Below are positions 3,585-54,140 of a DNA stretch of 64,000 nt, piece by piece. The position numbers and the translations under genes are program-made. The stretch comes from Octopus sinensis (Eukaryota), in NCBI RefSeq assembly GCF_006345805.1, contig NC_043000.1, forward strand, positions 161,634,001-161,698,000. Reading direction: 5' to 3'. The notes below the pieces were generated by a model, which saw nothing but the letters and a program-made list of their open reading frames with translations, was not told where the DNA came from and searched no databases. The first letter of the stretch is position 1; the number at the start of each line of letters is the position of its first letter.

Positions 3585-3647
3585 TTTGAGTACGTCAACG
3601 TTTCAAGATTAGCCAAATAAAATCAACATTTCTATCGTCAGCTCAAA
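3585..3647 (-). ncRNA. Type I hammerhead ribozyme motif, canonical core, in a TA-flanked Penelope-like repeat (3404-3680)
   Basis: Minus strand: UUUGAG CUGACGA uAGA...UCUu GAAAC GUUGAC GUA CUCAAA; 6-bp helix I, helix III ACGU-ug-ACGU, GUA site. Confidence 0.8.
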
Positions 3648-3754
3648 ATTTCTTAATTTGGATTTGGAAACACTAATTGTATATATATATATATATATAT
3701 ATATATATATATATATATATATATATTATATATATAATATATATATATATATAT

Positions 3755-3960
3755 AACGGAAGGTTTACGAAAATAACAAAAGACAAAGGCAGGTGGAGTA
3801 CAAACAAACAATTGTATTAGTATGGCGCTCAGGAATAGAAATAAAAGAACTCTTTTACGTTTCGAGCCTACGCTCTTCGACAGAAAGATACACAGAAAAG
3901 AAACAAGGAGAGAAACAAGGAGAGAAAAAAATTGCGTGTAGGGGCTAACGATCCAACATG
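3755..3960 (-). mobile_element. Penelope-like short repeat carrying a hammerhead-like motif
   Basis: Homologous to 1-97 and 9540-9678; lies between (TA)n tracts. Confidence 0.65.
3851..3888 (-). ncRNA. Minimal hammerhead-like motif with A6U core (CUGUCGA)
   Basis: UCUUU CUGUCGA a GAGC guag GCUC GAAAC GUA AAAGA; perfect helices I and II, loopless ACGU helix III. Confidence 0.6.
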
Positions 3961-4018
3961 GGGTTCTGATTTCAGAAGTCAGAGGTCGGAGGTCAAGTGT
4001 ATATATATATATATATAT

Positions 4019-4155
4019 AAGGGTAAATAATTAATAGTTTTAAAAAAACAACAATTATTTACGGGTAGATTTTGGTATGTAAATAGAACCATTATCGGTA
4101 GGAACTTTTTTTAAAAAAGTTCTAGATATATTTTTGTATATAAATTAAAAGGGGT
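4019..4155 (+). repeat. Direct copy of 2924-3054
   Basis: taagggtaaataattaatagttt...acgggtagattttggtatgtaaata...aaaagggg, again directly after (TA)n. Confidence 0.9.
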
Positions 4156-4159
4156 AGGA

Positions 4160-5597
4160 TGCGCAAGCAAAGTTAGCGATGATTGCCCAGTGGATTGGAC
4201 AATGCAAATCAAAGGCAGTCATCTATGAGGCTGAGTGGTACCCGGCAGTAACCGCAGCAACGACAACGATAGCACTAGCACTGACGATATCTGCAGTGGC
4301 GGCAACACTAGCAGCACGTCTGGCAGCATCATCTGCAACAACAACGGCTGCAGCATCACCGGCACGGGGGTATAGACACGGGAATATGTTGGGACTGCGG
4401 GGCGTTCCTTCAAGCAACGTCTTGACAATCATAGGTCCTCCTTTAGGAACCCAGAGAGGCGCAACATTGCATCCTTGGCCAGCAACTTAATTAAACGGAA
4501 GTTCCTAGAACAACCTGGACCATACGTTAACGGGAGCAAACGATAAAAAAATTGTTTGTCTGAGGCATGAAGGATCCTGAACAACTGGCTTGACCTGCTT
4601 ACCTTCTTAAACTCCAAGAAAATTGACATGGGTGGGGCCTGGAAATGGCTATCAAGGCCGCCCCGGAGGGCATAGAAAAAGTGGTAGTGGCCGTATCGGT
4701 CAACGGTGAAGTAATACTTAGGGTTAGAGTGGAGGGTAGGGCCCCTTGCTGTGACCAAAAAAGCCACATTAGAGCGGATGCCTTCCGCCGCTCGTAAAGA
4801 CACCGGTGTTACCGGAAAACGAAAAAAAAAAAACTGCACCTCCACCTCCTGCAGGAACCAGTGGGGGAGAGCCCAGCATCGAGGAAGAAAAAGAAAAACA
4901 AAGCAGAGGGGAGAGCCAAGGATGGATGGGAAACGGCAGGAAGGAAAAAGAGAATGAGGAGAAAGGGGCACAAACACTTAATGACAACCACCATCCCACA
5001 GCCACCCGACCCCTCACCAAGCCCCACTCTGCCCCACCCTTCCTCTGCAGACACCATCACTCACTCTAACCCGCCAGACACTGATAAATTATCTACAAAC
5101 ACACAGATTTCCCAACCCTACATTGTGAAAAAAGTATTGTTTTTTTACAATGAGTCACTCGATAAGATTTGTGAGGAAATAAAACAATCCGGACGATCTG
5201 ATAAAAGTAAATATGGAAGAATGTGAGAGAATACCCCCGCAAGTGAAATGTGTTATCACACATAGTAGGAACGCACAAAGACGAAGTGATGAATATGGGA
5301 GGGGTATCTCGACCTAGCAAAAGGATATTGATGCCAGAGGAGTGTCGTCAACAGTATGTTACCCTGAACTTTAAGAGACTTTAACATGGATATATTATTT
5401 GATTAATTGACTTTAAAGGTCTCAATGAGGTCACTTGGATTGTGGGGTCCGAGTGACATTCACTTCATCCATTTGTTAATTAATTATTTTCATACCATCC
5501 TTCTCATTCGTTTTATTTTCCCCCACTTCTGTTTTTTTTTATTGACTGTCCTTGTACTCCCTTTATGTTTAGCCCCTTGTCGGCAATAAAGAAAACA
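4160..5597 (+). mobile_element. ORF1-only (gag-like zinc knuckle) non-LTR element, decayed copy 1
   Basis: GLEMAIKAAPEGIEKVVVAVSVNGEVILRVRVEGRAPCC, GWETAGRKKR, Pro-rich tract, then 3' tail ctgtccttgtac...gccccttgtcggcaataaagaaa; no RT between ORF1 and tail. Confidence 0.7.
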
Positions 5598-5599
5598 CT

Positions 5600-6495
5600 A
5601 TGAACGTTTGTTCAATGACATAGAATAGTTTGTCAGTAAGTCACATGTTTTGTTGATTGTTGCTACGTTTATTTGTTTCGTGTTTTATAAACACTTTGCT
5701 TTGCTGCCTTGTGGCAGTTTTGTGGGCGTTTCCCCCTTATTTGAAGTGGAAGCGCAGTATAATTTGTTAAAAAAAAAAAAAAAGAAAATACGAAAATCTG
5801 AGATCGGGACTCTGGAGGTGCGGTTTCGGACCGAGGCAATTGCCAGGCAGCATTCGGCAATCTCCTTGAGGACCGACAAGATAGTACTTCTACTCATTTA
5901 CCTTGGAAGGCGTGCTTCCAGGGTAAGGGGGGAAAGCAACCCCCTCCCGGAGGTGGATGTGATCTGACTGGTGGCAGCAATACTGCTAGGCCTCGAAGAT
6001 AAGATTGTGGTCCTCTAAGCCACTAGAATAGCGCATAAAAATTGGCATGGGATGGGCCTGGAAATGGCTATCTAGGCCGCACCAGAGGACCTAGAAAAAA
6101 TGGTAGTGGCCATAACGGTCAACGAAGAAGTGATACTTACGCTTAGAGTGGAGGGCAGGACCCCTCGCTGTTACAAGTGTGACCAAAAAAGGCAACATTA
6201 AACCGGTATGTCCTCCACCGCCCGTAAAGTCACCGGTGTTACCTGAAAACGAAAAAGAAACTGCACCTTCACCTCCTGCGAGAACCAATGGGCTAGAGCC
6301 CTGCTTTGGGGAAGAAAAAAAAACAAAGCAGAGGAGAAAGCCAAGGGTGGATGGGAAGCGGCAGGAAGGGAAAAGAGAATAAGAAGGGCACAAACTATTA
6401 ATGATAAGTCCAACCTCCGCCCCACCCAGTCCCCAACCTGTCCCACCCTACCCTACAGACACCAGCCCTCATCCTACACCACCAAACACGAACAG
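5600..6495 (+). mobile_element. ORF1-only element copy 2, head-to-tail with copy 1, 3' end lost at a SINE
   Basis: RFRTEAIARQHSAISLRTDKIVLLLIYLGRRASRVRG..PEVDV, KNWHGMGLEMAI, ILTLRVEGRTPRCYKCDQKRQH; 6040-6440 closely parallels 4620-5040. Confidence 0.7.
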
Positions 6496-6496
6496 G

Positions 6497-52206: not shown

Positions 52207-52270
52207 ATATAAAAGTAAATAAATGGCACAAATATTGGTGCTTCGTTGTGCCATTTATTTACTTTTATAT
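52207..52270. repeat. Perfect 25-bp inverted repeat ending at (TA)n
   Basis: atataaaagtaaataaatggcacaa-14 nt-ttgtgccatttatttacttttatat. Confidence 0.9.
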
Positions 52271-52731
52271 ATATATATATATATATATATATATATATAA
52301 AATAGTGTACAATTAAATGCAAGAGAAAACTACCTTTAACAGGTAATTTTTACATGCTAGAAGAAGCAGTCAAAATGACCAAAACCACATTTACGAGCAA
52401 TTTTCGAAGGGAATGAAAATAAAAACTTTTACTGTGTTATTTTTTGTGGTAAGTATATACATATATAGACAGATAGATAGTTAGATATATAAAAATGTAA
52501 GATCCAGGGATTGAGGTGTAGGGAGAAAGTAGCTTCTAGCAATCCATAGTAAATATAAAAAACAACTTTCAGGGATTTATTTGTGATTTATTGAGACAGA
52601 AGGTTGTGGATATTTTTCATATTGAAGTACGATAAACTGAGAAAAGTTCTTTTTATATTTCATGGTAGGCAACCAGGGTTGCTAAGGTGTGCGAATAAGA
52701 ATGCAAGAGTTACAGAATGGAGAGGATTAGA

Positions 52732-52822
52732 TCCGGGCTATATATGTTTCATAGCGAACAGAACCACAGAAGTGATAAATATTCAAGCAAGGTGTAAACC
52801 ACAGGCTACTCTTCAGGCCAGA
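52732..52822 (-). ncRNA. Type I hammerhead motif with long helix II insert; one helix III mismatch
   Basis: UCUGGC CUGAAGA GUAGC...GCUAU GAAAC AUAU AUA GCCCGGA; abuts palindrome 52819-52919. Confidence 0.6.
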
Positions 52823-53795
52823 CAAGAAAGGAAAAAGTATCAGTGAACAATAATAATGTCTTACCTCAAATGGGCAAGACATTATTATTGTTCACTGATA
52901 TTTTTTCCTATCTTGTCTGAAATAGATTTGTGACTTCTCAGTGGTACAGAAGTATTTTTTGACTTCTATCATGAGCGATATAGGTACTCATTTAGTACCC
53001 TTATGTATGTATGTACATATCTAATATTGTATGTATATATTTTATTAATTTGCCTGTACGGCTAATAATTCGCTTACCACTTGTGATGGTATTTTAATAA
53101 TACCATCCCTATATTTATTATATATATATATGTGTGTATATATATATATATACATGTGTATATATTGAATATTTTGTTAATTTGAAACACTTGGGGTGGA
53201 AGATGTTTCAGATTTTAGATTTCCTCAAATTTTGAAATGATTTTATATTTGTTCTGTTAAAAGGAGACAGATTAATGATGAAACTTCATAAATTATTTCT
53301 GAAAGTTTCCATTTGTGATCCCTCTCTCACTTGGATTTTGGATTTCAGAATTTCAGTTAAAGACATACATATGCACATACGTGCACACACACACACACAC
53401 ACACACACACTCACACATATATTTATGTATATTTGCATGAATACATAGATAAATATAAATATAATTCACACATATGTTGCTGTTCCAAATAATTCATAAT
53501 TTATATAGACTGAGAACTATTGAATAACACCTTCCTAAGCCTAATTATGAATAACCCTGCAAATCATGTGTCTTACTATCAAGCATGAATACATGCAAGC
53601 ATGTGTGTGTGATTGTGTAGACATTCACACACATGCATACTCATATATATATATATAGGGAGATGTACTCGCATAGCAAGTGATTTGATCTGAGATCGTG
53701 TGCTGAAACGAAAACAATTGCAGCGTGGAAGGTGTTTGTAAGCCATTTAAGAAACACACAAAAGCCGTTCGATTCACTTCAACATTTAAGTTTAA

Positions 53796-53845
53796 TTTGT
53801 CAAAATATTTTCGTCACCAAAATCCGCGACCTGTTCACTGACAAA
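53796..53845 (-). ncRNA. Minimal hammerhead motif, G3-C8 core (left arm)
   Basis: UUUGUCA GUGAACA g GUCGC ggauuuug GUGAC GAAA AUAU UU UGACAAA; 7-bp helix I, palindromic helix III AAUAUU. Confidence 0.7.
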
Positions 53846-53855
53846 AATACGGATT

Positions 53856-53905
53856 TTTGTCAGTGGACAGGTCGCGGATTTTAGCGACGAAAATATTTTG
53901 ACAAA
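53856..53905 (+). ncRNA. Minimal hammerhead motif, G3-C8 core (right arm, A6G)
   Basis: UUUGUCA GUGGACA g GUCGC ggauuuua GCGAC GAAA AUAU UU UGACAAA. Confidence 0.6.
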
Positions 53906-54107
53906 TTAAACTTAAATGTTGAAGTGAATTGAACGGCTTTTGTGTGTTTCTTAAATGGCTTACAAACACCTTCCATGCTGCAATTGTATATATATATATA
54001 TATATATTTAGTAAATCCAAACATGAAAACACAAAGAGAAAACACAACAACGCGAGGATGTGGAACAAGTATAGTGGACGCTCAGCAAAGGAAAGAAAGA
54101 AGGAGGA

Positions 54108-54140
54108 TTTAACGTTTCAAGTGGAGCTCTTCATCAGAAA
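54108..54140 (-). ncRNA. Minimal hammerhead motif, canonical core, in TA-flanked repeat 54010-54215
   Basis: UUU CUGAUGA a GAG cucca CUU GAAAC GUU AAA. Confidence 0.65.

What the first reader, a model, noticed from the sequence alone, without database searches (positions are those of the whole stretch)
3585..54140. A set of hammerhead ribozyme motifs with systematically varied catalytic cores in short, mostly (TA)n-flanked, non-coding elements
Seen: 11 type I hammerhead motifs at 9 loci (3585, 3851, 9543, 35703, 38848/39002, 47590, 52732, 53796/53856, 54108). Each has a pairable helix I, a core heptamer, helix II, GAAA, a tiny often palindromic helix III and an NUH site. The host repeats look mostly unrelated in sequence, encode nothing, and nearly all abut TA microsatellites; several are fold-backs. 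Cores include CUGANGA, UUGAUAA, GUGAACA, CCGAUGA and CUGUNGA. Known: Penelope-like element termini and metazoan non-LTR retrozymes carry minimal type I hammerheads with short palindromic helix III, and C3-G8 is a tertiary Watson-Crick pair. Inference: this genome hosts a diverse population of non-autonomous ribozyme-bearing retroelements with cores that a CUGANGA-only search would miss.
Basis: partly seen in the sequence, partly recalled or inferred. Interest (0 to 1): 0.85.

Follow-up and report, generated by a model that had tools for sequence, protein, structure and literature searches.

The report
Variant hammerhead cores in Penelope retroelements
These repeats are hammerhead-shaped RNA motifs, predicted to cut themselves, mostly at the ends of Penelope-like jumping genes, and whole families of copies share unusual letters in the catalytic core, which would offer a natural test of whether these elements need to cut their own RNA.

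Summary
All 11 motifs lie at the stated coordinates and exceed chance (5 strict hits against 0.1 in shuffles). The odd cores are family traits, not decay: U6 in 14,197 exact genomic matches against 561 non-U; G3-C8 in 1,401; C4 in 23 of 28; U3-A8 in 6 of 6. Five motifs (U6, G3-C8, 54108) belong to the terminal repeats of Penelope-like elements that encode RT and GIY-YIG, one with an open 1,042-codon frame. They are left as 5'-truncated, often inverted copies in (TA)n. Only the 3585 family is shown to be a retrozyme-like non-coding tandem unit. Three related families carry G3-C8, U3-A8 and C3-G8 with C9, a natural covariation of the core pair. U3-A8 and C4 are known in nature; natural G3-C8, U6 and C9 were not found in my searches, but two key papers were not available. 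Cleavage is untested, and inserted copies do not start at the cut site. The scan earlier noted a G3-C8-like motif behind a Penelope RT in another genome.

The parts
3585..3647 (-). Type I hammerhead motif, canonical core CUGACGA, helix I 6 bp, helix III 3-4 bp; lies in a 5'-truncated copy (about 3387-3676) of a ~560-nt non-coding tandem (retrozyme-like) unit
3851..3888 (-). Minimal hammerhead motif with U6 core (CUGUCGA), extra A9b, palindromic helix III AACGU/A; 3' terminal repeat (about 3752-3996) of a Neptune-like Penelope element
9543..9580 (+). Minimal hammerhead motif with U6 core (CUGUAGA), older subfamily of the same U6 family; closing pair of helix I mismatched in this copy
35703..35775 (+). 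Canonical-core hammerhead motif (CUGACGA), helix I 7 bp, long helix II; lies between direct repeats of ~262 nt spaced 562 nt apart (35201-35460, 35763-36025)
38848..38889 (-). U3-A8 core (UUGAUAA), one arm of a fold-back (about 38633-39215); helix I decayed in this arm
39002..39044 (+). U3-A8 core (UUGAUAA), other arm; other family copies have a perfect ACCGGU helix III; family unit about 358 nt
47590..47627 (-). C4 core (CCGAUGA); helix I CUGU/ACAG and helix III ACUC-n-GAGU as in published Hydra-clade PLE hammerheads; element about 47482-47664, fold-back
52736..52819 (-). Canonical-core motif (CUGAAGA), helix II 5 bp with a long loop, helix I only 3 bp; family not characterised (1 relative in the fetched loci)
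53796..53845 (-). G3-C8 core (GUGAACA), helix I 7 bp, helix II 5 bp, palindromic helix III AAUAUU, U17; 3' terminal repeat (about 53656-53851) of a young Nematis-like Penelope element
53856..53905 (+). Inverted second arm of the same insertion (to about 53987); G3-C8 kept, G6 is a copy-specific change
54107..54141 (-). Canonical-core minimal motif (CUGAUGA) in a terminal repeat (about 54010-54214) of a Neptune-like family related to the U6 family; 20 of 30 fetched family copies have C4

Best explanation
The motifs are minimal type I hammerhead sequences in the terminal repeats of several Penelope-like retroelement families and of at least one non-coding tandem derivative, and their variant cores are fixed family traits that likely still allow slow, dimer- or protein-assisted self-cleavage. 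[quoted passage not shown] Inferred from known PLE biology: the element's endonuclease nicks AT-rich DNA and reverse transcription starts near the 3' end of the terminal repeat and often stops or flips early, which leaves short hammerhead-bearing stubs and fold-backs. Inferred: two hammerheads of a tandem transcript would pair through the palindromic helix III and cut after the NUH triplet. Selection would keep the 3-8 Watson-Crick pair and G5/G12/A13/A14 but tolerate weaker cores, because the RNA that gets inserted is the uncut form. My odds of measurable cleavage in a dimer or stabilised construct: U3-A8 0.8, C4 0.7, G3-C8 0.65, U6 0.4, C9 0.25.
For: Family-fixed cores: U6 14,197 exact matches against 561 non-U, 28 of 28 profile-found copies in loci not chosen by that pattern, and 18 of 18 upstream repeats chosen by the neighbouring 5' region. 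G3-C8: 1,401 matches and 38 of 43 copies not selected by the pattern. C4: 23 of 28 readable arms. U3-A8: 6 of 6. ORF linkage: the G3-C8 motif lies 1.06-1.33 kb after the YIGET motif in 17 of 20 endonuclease loci, and L138 has an open 1,042-codon frame. U6 follows RT (PF00078, E 6.7e-8) and GIY-YIG (PF01541, E 0.0013, below the curated cut-off) in L061 and L063. C4 copies of the 54108 family follow related ORFs in 2 of 8 long loci, RT 75-77% identical to the U6 element. Constraint: in the U6 family N7 takes all four bases and H17 is A, U or C, never G (0 of 28), while G12-A15.1 and U16.1 hold. Three families at ~51-55% protein identity carry G3-C8, U3-A8 and C3-G8. In a scan that left the seven core positions free, 14 of the 16 clusters that share a heptamer (of 30 clusters) are hammerhead-type with a Watson-Crick 3-8 pair: 10 C-G, 3 U-A, 1 G-C (loci enriched for these families). 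(TA)4 lies within 190 nt 3' of the cut site in 27, 23 and 25 of 30 copies of three families, against a background of 0.15. Literature: engineered C3G/G8C partly rescues a PLE hammerhead (PMC11167929, passages) and was the only rescue of the U-turn region in a full pairwise scan (PMC9901934, passages); CCGA cores occur in viroids and still cleave (PMC9608096, passage).
Against: No cleavage was measured. In the pairwise scan all other single and double U-turn mutants had low activity (PMC9901934), which argues against U6; natural A6C cleaves at under 0.1 per minute (PMC3088659, section 8). C9 removes a conserved A. 3 of 43 G3-C8-family copies have G3 with G8, a combination that abolished activity in PMC11167929; they fall in two loop-II subfamilies, so they may be separate later mutations. 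No copy of 15 G3-C8 and none of 18 U6 upstream repeats begins at the cut site; one U6 element (L063) begins 2-4 nt after it, at a junction with another element. Helix I is only 3-5 bp and U/A-rich in several families. Isolated folds are not more stable than shuffles for 9 of 12 motifs tested (z above -2). In the random 0.9 Mb the relaxed descriptor shows no excess for G3-C8 (4 against 4.0 shuffled), so that class rests on the family evidence. No ORF partner is shown for the 47590, 38848, 35703 and 52732 families.
Confidence: 0.7

Rival explanations
1. The variant motifs descend from hammerheads but no longer cut. Catalysis is dispensable for these Penelope elements, and the fold is kept only as a binding or folding site for the element's protein, or simply drifts.
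For: Catalytic mutants did not affect insertion in vitro and no RNA-seq reads ended at the cut site in the anole element (PMC11167929, passages). Naiad elements lack canonical hammerheads yet reach very high copy numbers (PMC8557442, passages). U6 and C9 are fixed in successful families. Insertions run through the cut site uncut. G3 with G8 occurs in 3 of 43 copies.
Against: The 3-8 pair forms only in the active conformation (established knowledge; PMC9901934), yet it stays Watson-Crick through two-step swaps in 14 of 14 hammerhead-type clusters. H17 avoids G and N7 is free, as the cleavage rules predict. The recurrent position-4 change is C, the one known to be tolerated, seen in three separate families.
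Confidence: 0.22
2. One reading: all nine loci are non-autonomous, non-coding ribozyme retroelements (non-LTR retrozymes) that spread through circular RNAs.
For: The 3585 family forms head-to-tail 556-564-nt units in 10 of 25 loci (7 distinct sites), with no PLE protein motif in those loci. The 38848 family repeats at ~358 nt and 35703 lies in a 562-nt terminally redundant unit. No PLE ORF remnant lies in the window (tblastn empty).
Against: Five of 11 motifs belong to families that continue upstream into RT and GIY-YIG ORFs. Their copies have ragged 5' ends and a fixed 3' end at (TA)n, as truncated insertions do.
Confidence: 0.06
3. The motifs are chance look-alikes in AT-rich repeats, or the variant cores are random decay of canonical copies.
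For: The window is 37% G+C and relaxed descriptors give false hits (2.2 per shuffled window; U3-A8 10 per shuffled 0.9 Mb). Four window copies are visibly decayed (9543, 38848, 39002, 53856).
Against: Strict hits 5 against 0.1. Canonical cores 28 against 3.0 in a random 0.9 Mb. Reversed-pattern controls were 0 in every genome pattern search. The variant state is the majority state of each family, and C4 is clustered on a tree of copies (2 changes against a shuffled mean of 11.6).
Confidence: 0.02

Closest known systems
Minimal type I hammerheads (min-HHR) in the terminal repeats of metazoan Penelope-like elements (Cervera and de la Pena 2014, PMC4209133; parts 1-2 of 4 read)
   Same: Short helix I, extra nucleotide between 9 and 10.1, palindromic 15.2-16.2 region, thousands of mostly solitary copies, inverted pairs 100-700 bp apart, and a natural U3-A8 variant (about 1,300 hits in Schistosoma).
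   Different: Here whole families carry G3-C8, U6, C4 and C9 cores, which the parts read do not report.
Neptune-, Nematis- and Hydra-clade EN+ Penelope-like elements (Craig et al. 2021, PMC8557442; passages and supplement parts 2 and 54)
   Same: [quoted passage not shown] The 47590 motif has the same helix I and helix III as the listed Hydra-2_aMil hammerhead. That paper lists octopus Naiad and Hydra families.
   Different: All hammerheads in its File S2 have CUGANGA cores, and five short motifs from these families were not found in its supplement (line breaks could hide a match). My clade labels come from comparing linker spacing by eye, not from a tree.
Non-LTR retrozymes of animals (Cervera and de la Pena 2020, PMC7229834, passages; Li, Clavereau and Pollet 2026, 10.64898/2026.07.22.740005, part 1 of 5)
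   Same: The 3585 family is a non-coding head-to-tail unit with a canonical-core type I hammerhead in each repeat, with a PLE-like insertion pattern.
   Different: Its unit (~560 nt) is longer than the ~220-390 nt units described. Circular RNA and loop 1-loop 2 contacts were not tested. Most other window motifs are ends of ORF-bearing elements.
Natural and engineered hammerhead core variants (Perreault 2011, PMC3088659, section 8 and passages; Roberts 2023, PMC9901934, passages; Frangieh 2024, PMC11167929, passages; PMC9608096, passages)
   Same: U3-A8 and U4C are known natural variants; C3G/G8C is the standard engineered rescue; A6C is a rare natural variant of low activity.
   Different: Those were rare isolates or laboratory mutants. 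Here G3-C8, U6 and C4 are the majority state in families of about 1,400 to 14,000 exact copies.

Membership tests
Minimal type I hammerhead of PLEs | Core C3-U4-G5-A6-N7-G8-A9, G12-A13-A14, A15.1-U16.1, H17 | tested here: inconclusive
   Exact in 4 of 11 (3585, 35703, 52732, 54108). 4 have a swapped Watson-Crick 3-8 pair (one of them also G6), 1 has C4, 2 have U6. G5, A9, GAAA and UH are present in all 11.
Minimal type I hammerhead of PLEs | Helices I and II enclose the core in type I order | tested here: met
   Helix I has 4 or more pairs in 7 of 11 window copies; the others are decayed copies or weak. Folds recover helices I and II for 3851, 35703 and 53796.
Minimal type I hammerhead of PLEs | Tiny palindromic helix III suited to dimer formation; extra nucleotide 9b | tested here: met
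   ACGU, AAUAUU, ACCGGU and ACUC-n-GAGU; 9b in the U6, 54108 and G3-C8 families.
Minimal type I hammerhead of PLEs | Lies in the terminal repeat of a PLE | tested here: met
   Met for 5 of 11 motifs: the U6, G3-C8 and 54108 families. Not shown for the other six.
Minimal type I hammerhead of PLEs | Site-specific self-cleavage, as a dimer or with protein help | not testable with these tools
   Only contig-type public runs were available and none is on record as RNA.
Rfam hammerhead families | Covariance-model score at the gathering threshold | tested here: not met
   0 matches in the window; no hammerhead model at E<=10 over 53780-54170 or 3560-3675.
EN+ Penelope-like element | [quoted passage not shown] | tested here: met
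   Elsewhere in the genome: L138 open 1,042-codon frame with RYVDD and YIGET motifs, no Pfam hit; L061 PF00078 and weak PF01541. None inside the window.
EN+ Penelope-like element | Partial tandem and inverted terminal repeats, 5' truncation, (TA)n target | tested here: met
   Upstream repeat in 18 of 18 U6 5' regions; inverted arms; (TA)4 3' of 23-27 of 30 copies.
EN+ Penelope-like element | Clade placement (Neptune, Nematis, Hydra) on an RT tree with reference elements | not tested
   Linker spacing and motifs were compared by eye with published alignments; no reference proteins were held.
Non-LTR retrozyme | Non-coding head-to-tail units, each with a type I hammerhead | tested here: met
   3585 family only: 10 of 25 loci, 7 distinct sites. 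Not met for the U6, G3-C8 and 54108 families; only partial duplications seen for 38848 and 35703.
Non-LTR retrozyme | Expressed as circular RNA after double self-cleavage | not testable with these tools
   No raw RNA reads were available for this family.

The most novel reading that the evidence does not exclude
Penelope elements in this genome run on hammerhead cores outside the accepted consensus. A natural G3-C8 swap, a U6 core and a C9 core all still cleave, rescued by dimerisation or by the element's own protein. Weak cores are favoured because the uncut RNA is what gets inserted. Consensus searches would then miss tens of thousands of working ribozymes in this genome alone, and the core rules drawn from protein-free assays would be too narrow.
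Probability: 0.3. Interest if true: 0.8.

Novelty: new variant of a known kind. Interest (0 to 1): 0.6.

Why it matters
The hammerhead core is treated as nearly invariant, and what Penelope hammerheads do is an open question: one in vitro study found them dispensable for insertion. Here related, recently amplified families give a natural mutational series (G3-C8, U3-A8, C4, U6, C9), one of them in an element with an open 1,042-codon frame. If they cleave, the consensus and the search descriptors are too narrow, and the G3-C8 family is a natural counterpart of the classic C3G/G8C rescue experiment. If U6 and C9 do not cleave, families of over ten thousand copies show that Penelope elements spread without ribozyme activity. 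Either result is informative and cheap to obtain.

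Tried and rejected
Rfam: no hammerhead match; the hits were microsatellite and fold-back look-alikes of miRNA models. Exact pattern for the 47590 copy found only itself, so a DNA search was used. 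Test that insertions begin at the cut site: no pile-up; the U6 part was swamped by microsatellite matches and cut, so only its upstream-starting rows were read. Idea that core changes remove a TGA stop from an overlapping ORF: not supported for G3-C8, whose likely start codon lies about 55 nt after the cut site; not tested for U6 or C4. Expression: no RNA holder listed; contigs of 4 runs were laid but cannot show ends or strand. Relatives with DNA context: none in metagenome or viral contigs; 9 metagenome pattern hits lack helices I and III. The protein search gave 111 relatives without context. Polarity of C4 versus U4 in the 54108 family is unresolved (open basal fork; 35 rows, one near-duplicate locus left out). 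The families of 35703 and 52732 were not searched genome-wide; each has 1 relative in the fetched loci. No formal helix-covariation count was run within families, because most copies were selected by exact patterns through helix II. Literature searches found no report of natural G3-C8 or A6U. Lunse et al. 2017 (about PLE hammerhead variants; title seen in a reference list) and Arkhipova et al. 2017 (Terminons) are not held and may report such cores. Supplements of PMC4209133 and PMC3088659, whose figures list motifs, were not examined.

Full report
Setting. The window is G000:C4:161634001-161698000 in a 2.72-Gb genome rich in (TA)n. It looks like an octopus genome; this is inference from the repeat landscape (recalled) and from a 54%-identical relative of one element's protein annotated in Octopus vulgaris.

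Observation. A strict type I descriptor found 5 against 0.1 in 30 shuffles; a relaxed one found 7 of the 11, with 6 hits at score >=9 against 0.67. The motifs at 38848, 39002 and 53856 passed neither descriptor: they are decayed or doubly variant copies. Rfam gives no hammerhead hit. In 90 evenly spaced 10-kb stretches (899,600 bases) the relaxed descriptor gave canonical cores 28 against 3.0 in shuffles, U6 9 against 2.7, U3-A8 26 against 10, C4 5 against 1.0, A3-U8 15 against 7.2 and G3-C8 4 against 4.0. The strict one gave canonical 6 against 0, U6 5 against 0, U3-A8 2 against 1.0, G3-C8 1 against 0.1 and C4 1 against 0. The genome is therefore rich in such motifs and the window is not a special locus.

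The variant cores are family traits. U6: 14,197 exact matches against 561 with another base there, mostly C in the 100 listed. 28 of 28 copies found by a profile in loci not chosen for that pattern have U6; N7 takes all four bases and H17 is A, U or C (the profile included the motif itself). G3-C8: 1,401 exact matches; 38 of 43 copies not selected by the pattern keep G3-C8, including older loop-II subfamilies; 3 have G3 with G8, 1 has C3 and 1 has U3. C4 at 47590: 23 of 28 readable arms, after dropping 6 rows that were inversion junctions. U3-A8 at 38848: 6 of 6. The 54108 family has 10,805 matches; 20 of 30 fetched copies have C4 and 30 of 30 have A6. C4 is clustered on a tree of copies (2 changes against 11.6 shuffled), but the direction of change is unresolved.

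What carries them. [quoted passage not shown] 18 of 18 stretches taken upstream of its 5' region (18 of 40 hits, chosen unseen) hold a second CUGUUGA motif. The G3-C8 motif follows the endonuclease in 17 of 20 loci; the best copies are 95-99% identical over the endonuclease region, and one has an open 1,042-codon frame; its short linker is Nematis-like by eye. C4 copies of the 54108 family follow a related Neptune-like ORF in 2 of 8 long loci. The 47590 motif shares helices I and III with a published Hydra-clade hammerhead, but no ORF partner was found. The 3585 family is a 556-564-nt non-coding head-to-tail unit, about 99% identical among the best hits. 38848 repeats at ~358 nt and 35703 lies in a 562-nt terminally redundant unit. 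The window holds no PLE ORF remnant. Copies end at (TA)n in 23-27 of 30 cases against a background of 0.15, have ragged 5' ends and often an inverted arm. This matches the PLE insertion pattern in PMC8557442 (passages) and PMC4209133 (parts 1-2).

Evidence for constraint on the core. Relatives of the G3-C8 endonuclease at 51-55% identity fall into two more families. One has UUGAAAA (U3-A8) and the other CUGAUGC (C3-G8 with C9, 9 of 9 copies); all three have G9b, a helix II opening G-U and closing A-C, and U17. A scan of about 2 Mb of fetched loci with the seven core positions free gave 30 clusters. 16 share a heptamer, and 14 of these are hammerhead-type with a Watson-Crick 3-8 pair (10 C-G, 3 U-A, 1 G-C); 2 are not hammerhead-like (the loci are enriched for these families). 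C4 also appears in a third family linked to a Hydra-like ORF. In print, U3-A8 is a natural variant (PMC4209133; PMC3088659 section 8), U4C is natural and active in viroids (PMC9608096, passage), and C3G/G8C is the engineered rescue (PMC11167929 and PMC9901934, passages).

Evidence against activity. Nothing was assayed. The pairwise scan reports low activity for all other U-turn mutants, which bears on U6, and A9 is conserved in the consensus. No G3-C8 copy of 15 and none of 18 U6 upstream repeats starts at the cut site; one U6 element starts 2-4 nt after it, at a junction with another element. This agrees with the in vitro finding that uncut RNA is the insertion substrate and that hammerhead mutants insert normally (PMC11167929). 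It does not show that cleavage never happens. Isolated folds beat shuffles (z below -2) in only 3 of 12 motifs. Public runs gave no RNA holder on record.

Mechanism. Shown: the anatomy, the family-fixed cores, the ORF linkage and the insertion pattern. Inferred: target-primed reverse transcription at (TA)n with early stop or inversion makes the stubs; tandem terminal repeats pair through the palindromic helix III and cut slowly, perhaps with protein help; cores move mainly along tolerated paths (3-8 swaps, C4, N7), while U6 and C9 go beyond them and may be weak or dead. Confidence 0.7, against 0.22 for a non-cutting vestige.

Novelty. Hammerheads in Penelope elements and in retrozymes are known, and so are U3-A8 and U4C. 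Natural G3-C8, U6 and C9 as majority states of large families were not found in eight searches. Lunse 2017 and Arkhipova 2017 were not available, and figure supplements of PMC4209133 and PMC3088659 were not seen; any of these may lower the claim. Other papers seen: PMC7229834, PMC3884650, PMC11014351, PMC6765202 and PMC6155905 (passages only); the 2026 retrozyme preprint (part 1 of 5). Earlier scan notes describe a single G3-C8-like motif with an inserted base behind a Penelope RT in another genome; I did not test them. Verdict: new variant of a known kind, interest 0.6.

Noticed in passing
L263, L267-L272, L356:6555, L357:7074, L086:816-870: A PLE family ~51-55% identical to the G3-C8 element has a hammerhead-shaped motif with core CUGAUGC (C at position 9) in 9 of 9 copies.
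   Followed up: partly
L264-L266, L354:894, L355:664: A second sister family has U3-A8 (UUGAAAA), helix III AAUU and a 3-bp helix I; one copy (L056) has G3 with A8.
   Followed up: partly
L285, L287, L288, L298, L299, L350:4584: A separate C4 family (CCGAUGA, helix III ACAGCUGU) lies about 1.35-1.45 kb downstream of the matched part of a Hydra-like ORF in four loci; a fifth copy has U4.
   Followed up: partly
L118-L137, just 5' of the G3-C8 motif: A branch-point, pyrimidine tract and AG (3' splice-site-like) end about 15 nt before helix I, and 10 of 15 incidental copies start 49-61 nt before the cut site, close to this AG. An intron ending at helix I was described for Drosophila virilis Penelope.
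   Followed up: partly
L141:9678-9748, L145:6077-6147, L151:4213-4283, L282:6603-6673: Four copies of a repeat with a possible A3-U8 core (AUGAAUA) and a long helix I, but weak helices II and III; unverified.
   Followed up: partly
L051, L274:6069, L280:252: 3 of 43 G3-C8-family copies have G3 with G8 (GUGAAGA), in two loop-II subfamilies; a mutation hotspot or a mobile mismatched subfamily cannot be told apart.
   Followed up: no
L160, L167, L168, L174, L182, L196, L198, L265: Many canonical-core families have a long AT-rich helix II (40-70 nt) and a perfect 8-nt palindromic helix III (ACAUAUGU, ACGUACGU, ACACGUGU, ACCUAGGU and others).
   Followed up: no
L157, L178, L213, L214, L237, L347: Further U3-A8 families (UUGACAA, UUGAGAA, UUGAAAA) unrelated in sequence to the 38848 family.
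   Followed up: no
window 1-115 and L065:9970-10000: A decayed copy of the U6 family (C at position 6) straddles the window's first base; the window happens to begin at its cut site.
   Followed up: partly
window 7854-8414, 29459-33458, 34698-35234, 39893-40213: Broken reading frames that look like non-LTR retrotransposon RT/endonuclease pieces and a mariner-like transposase piece (by eye, labels recalled).
   Followed up: no
L361:1028-1963: An uninterrupted 312-codon frame with a caspase-like QACRG motif (label recalled) near a G3-C8-related element; a 3585-family fold-back sits inside that element's 3' region.
   Followed up: no
L063:6200-6400: A 47590-type fold-back abuts the upstream terminal repeat of a full-length U6 element 2-4 nt after the predicted cut site.
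   Followed up: partly
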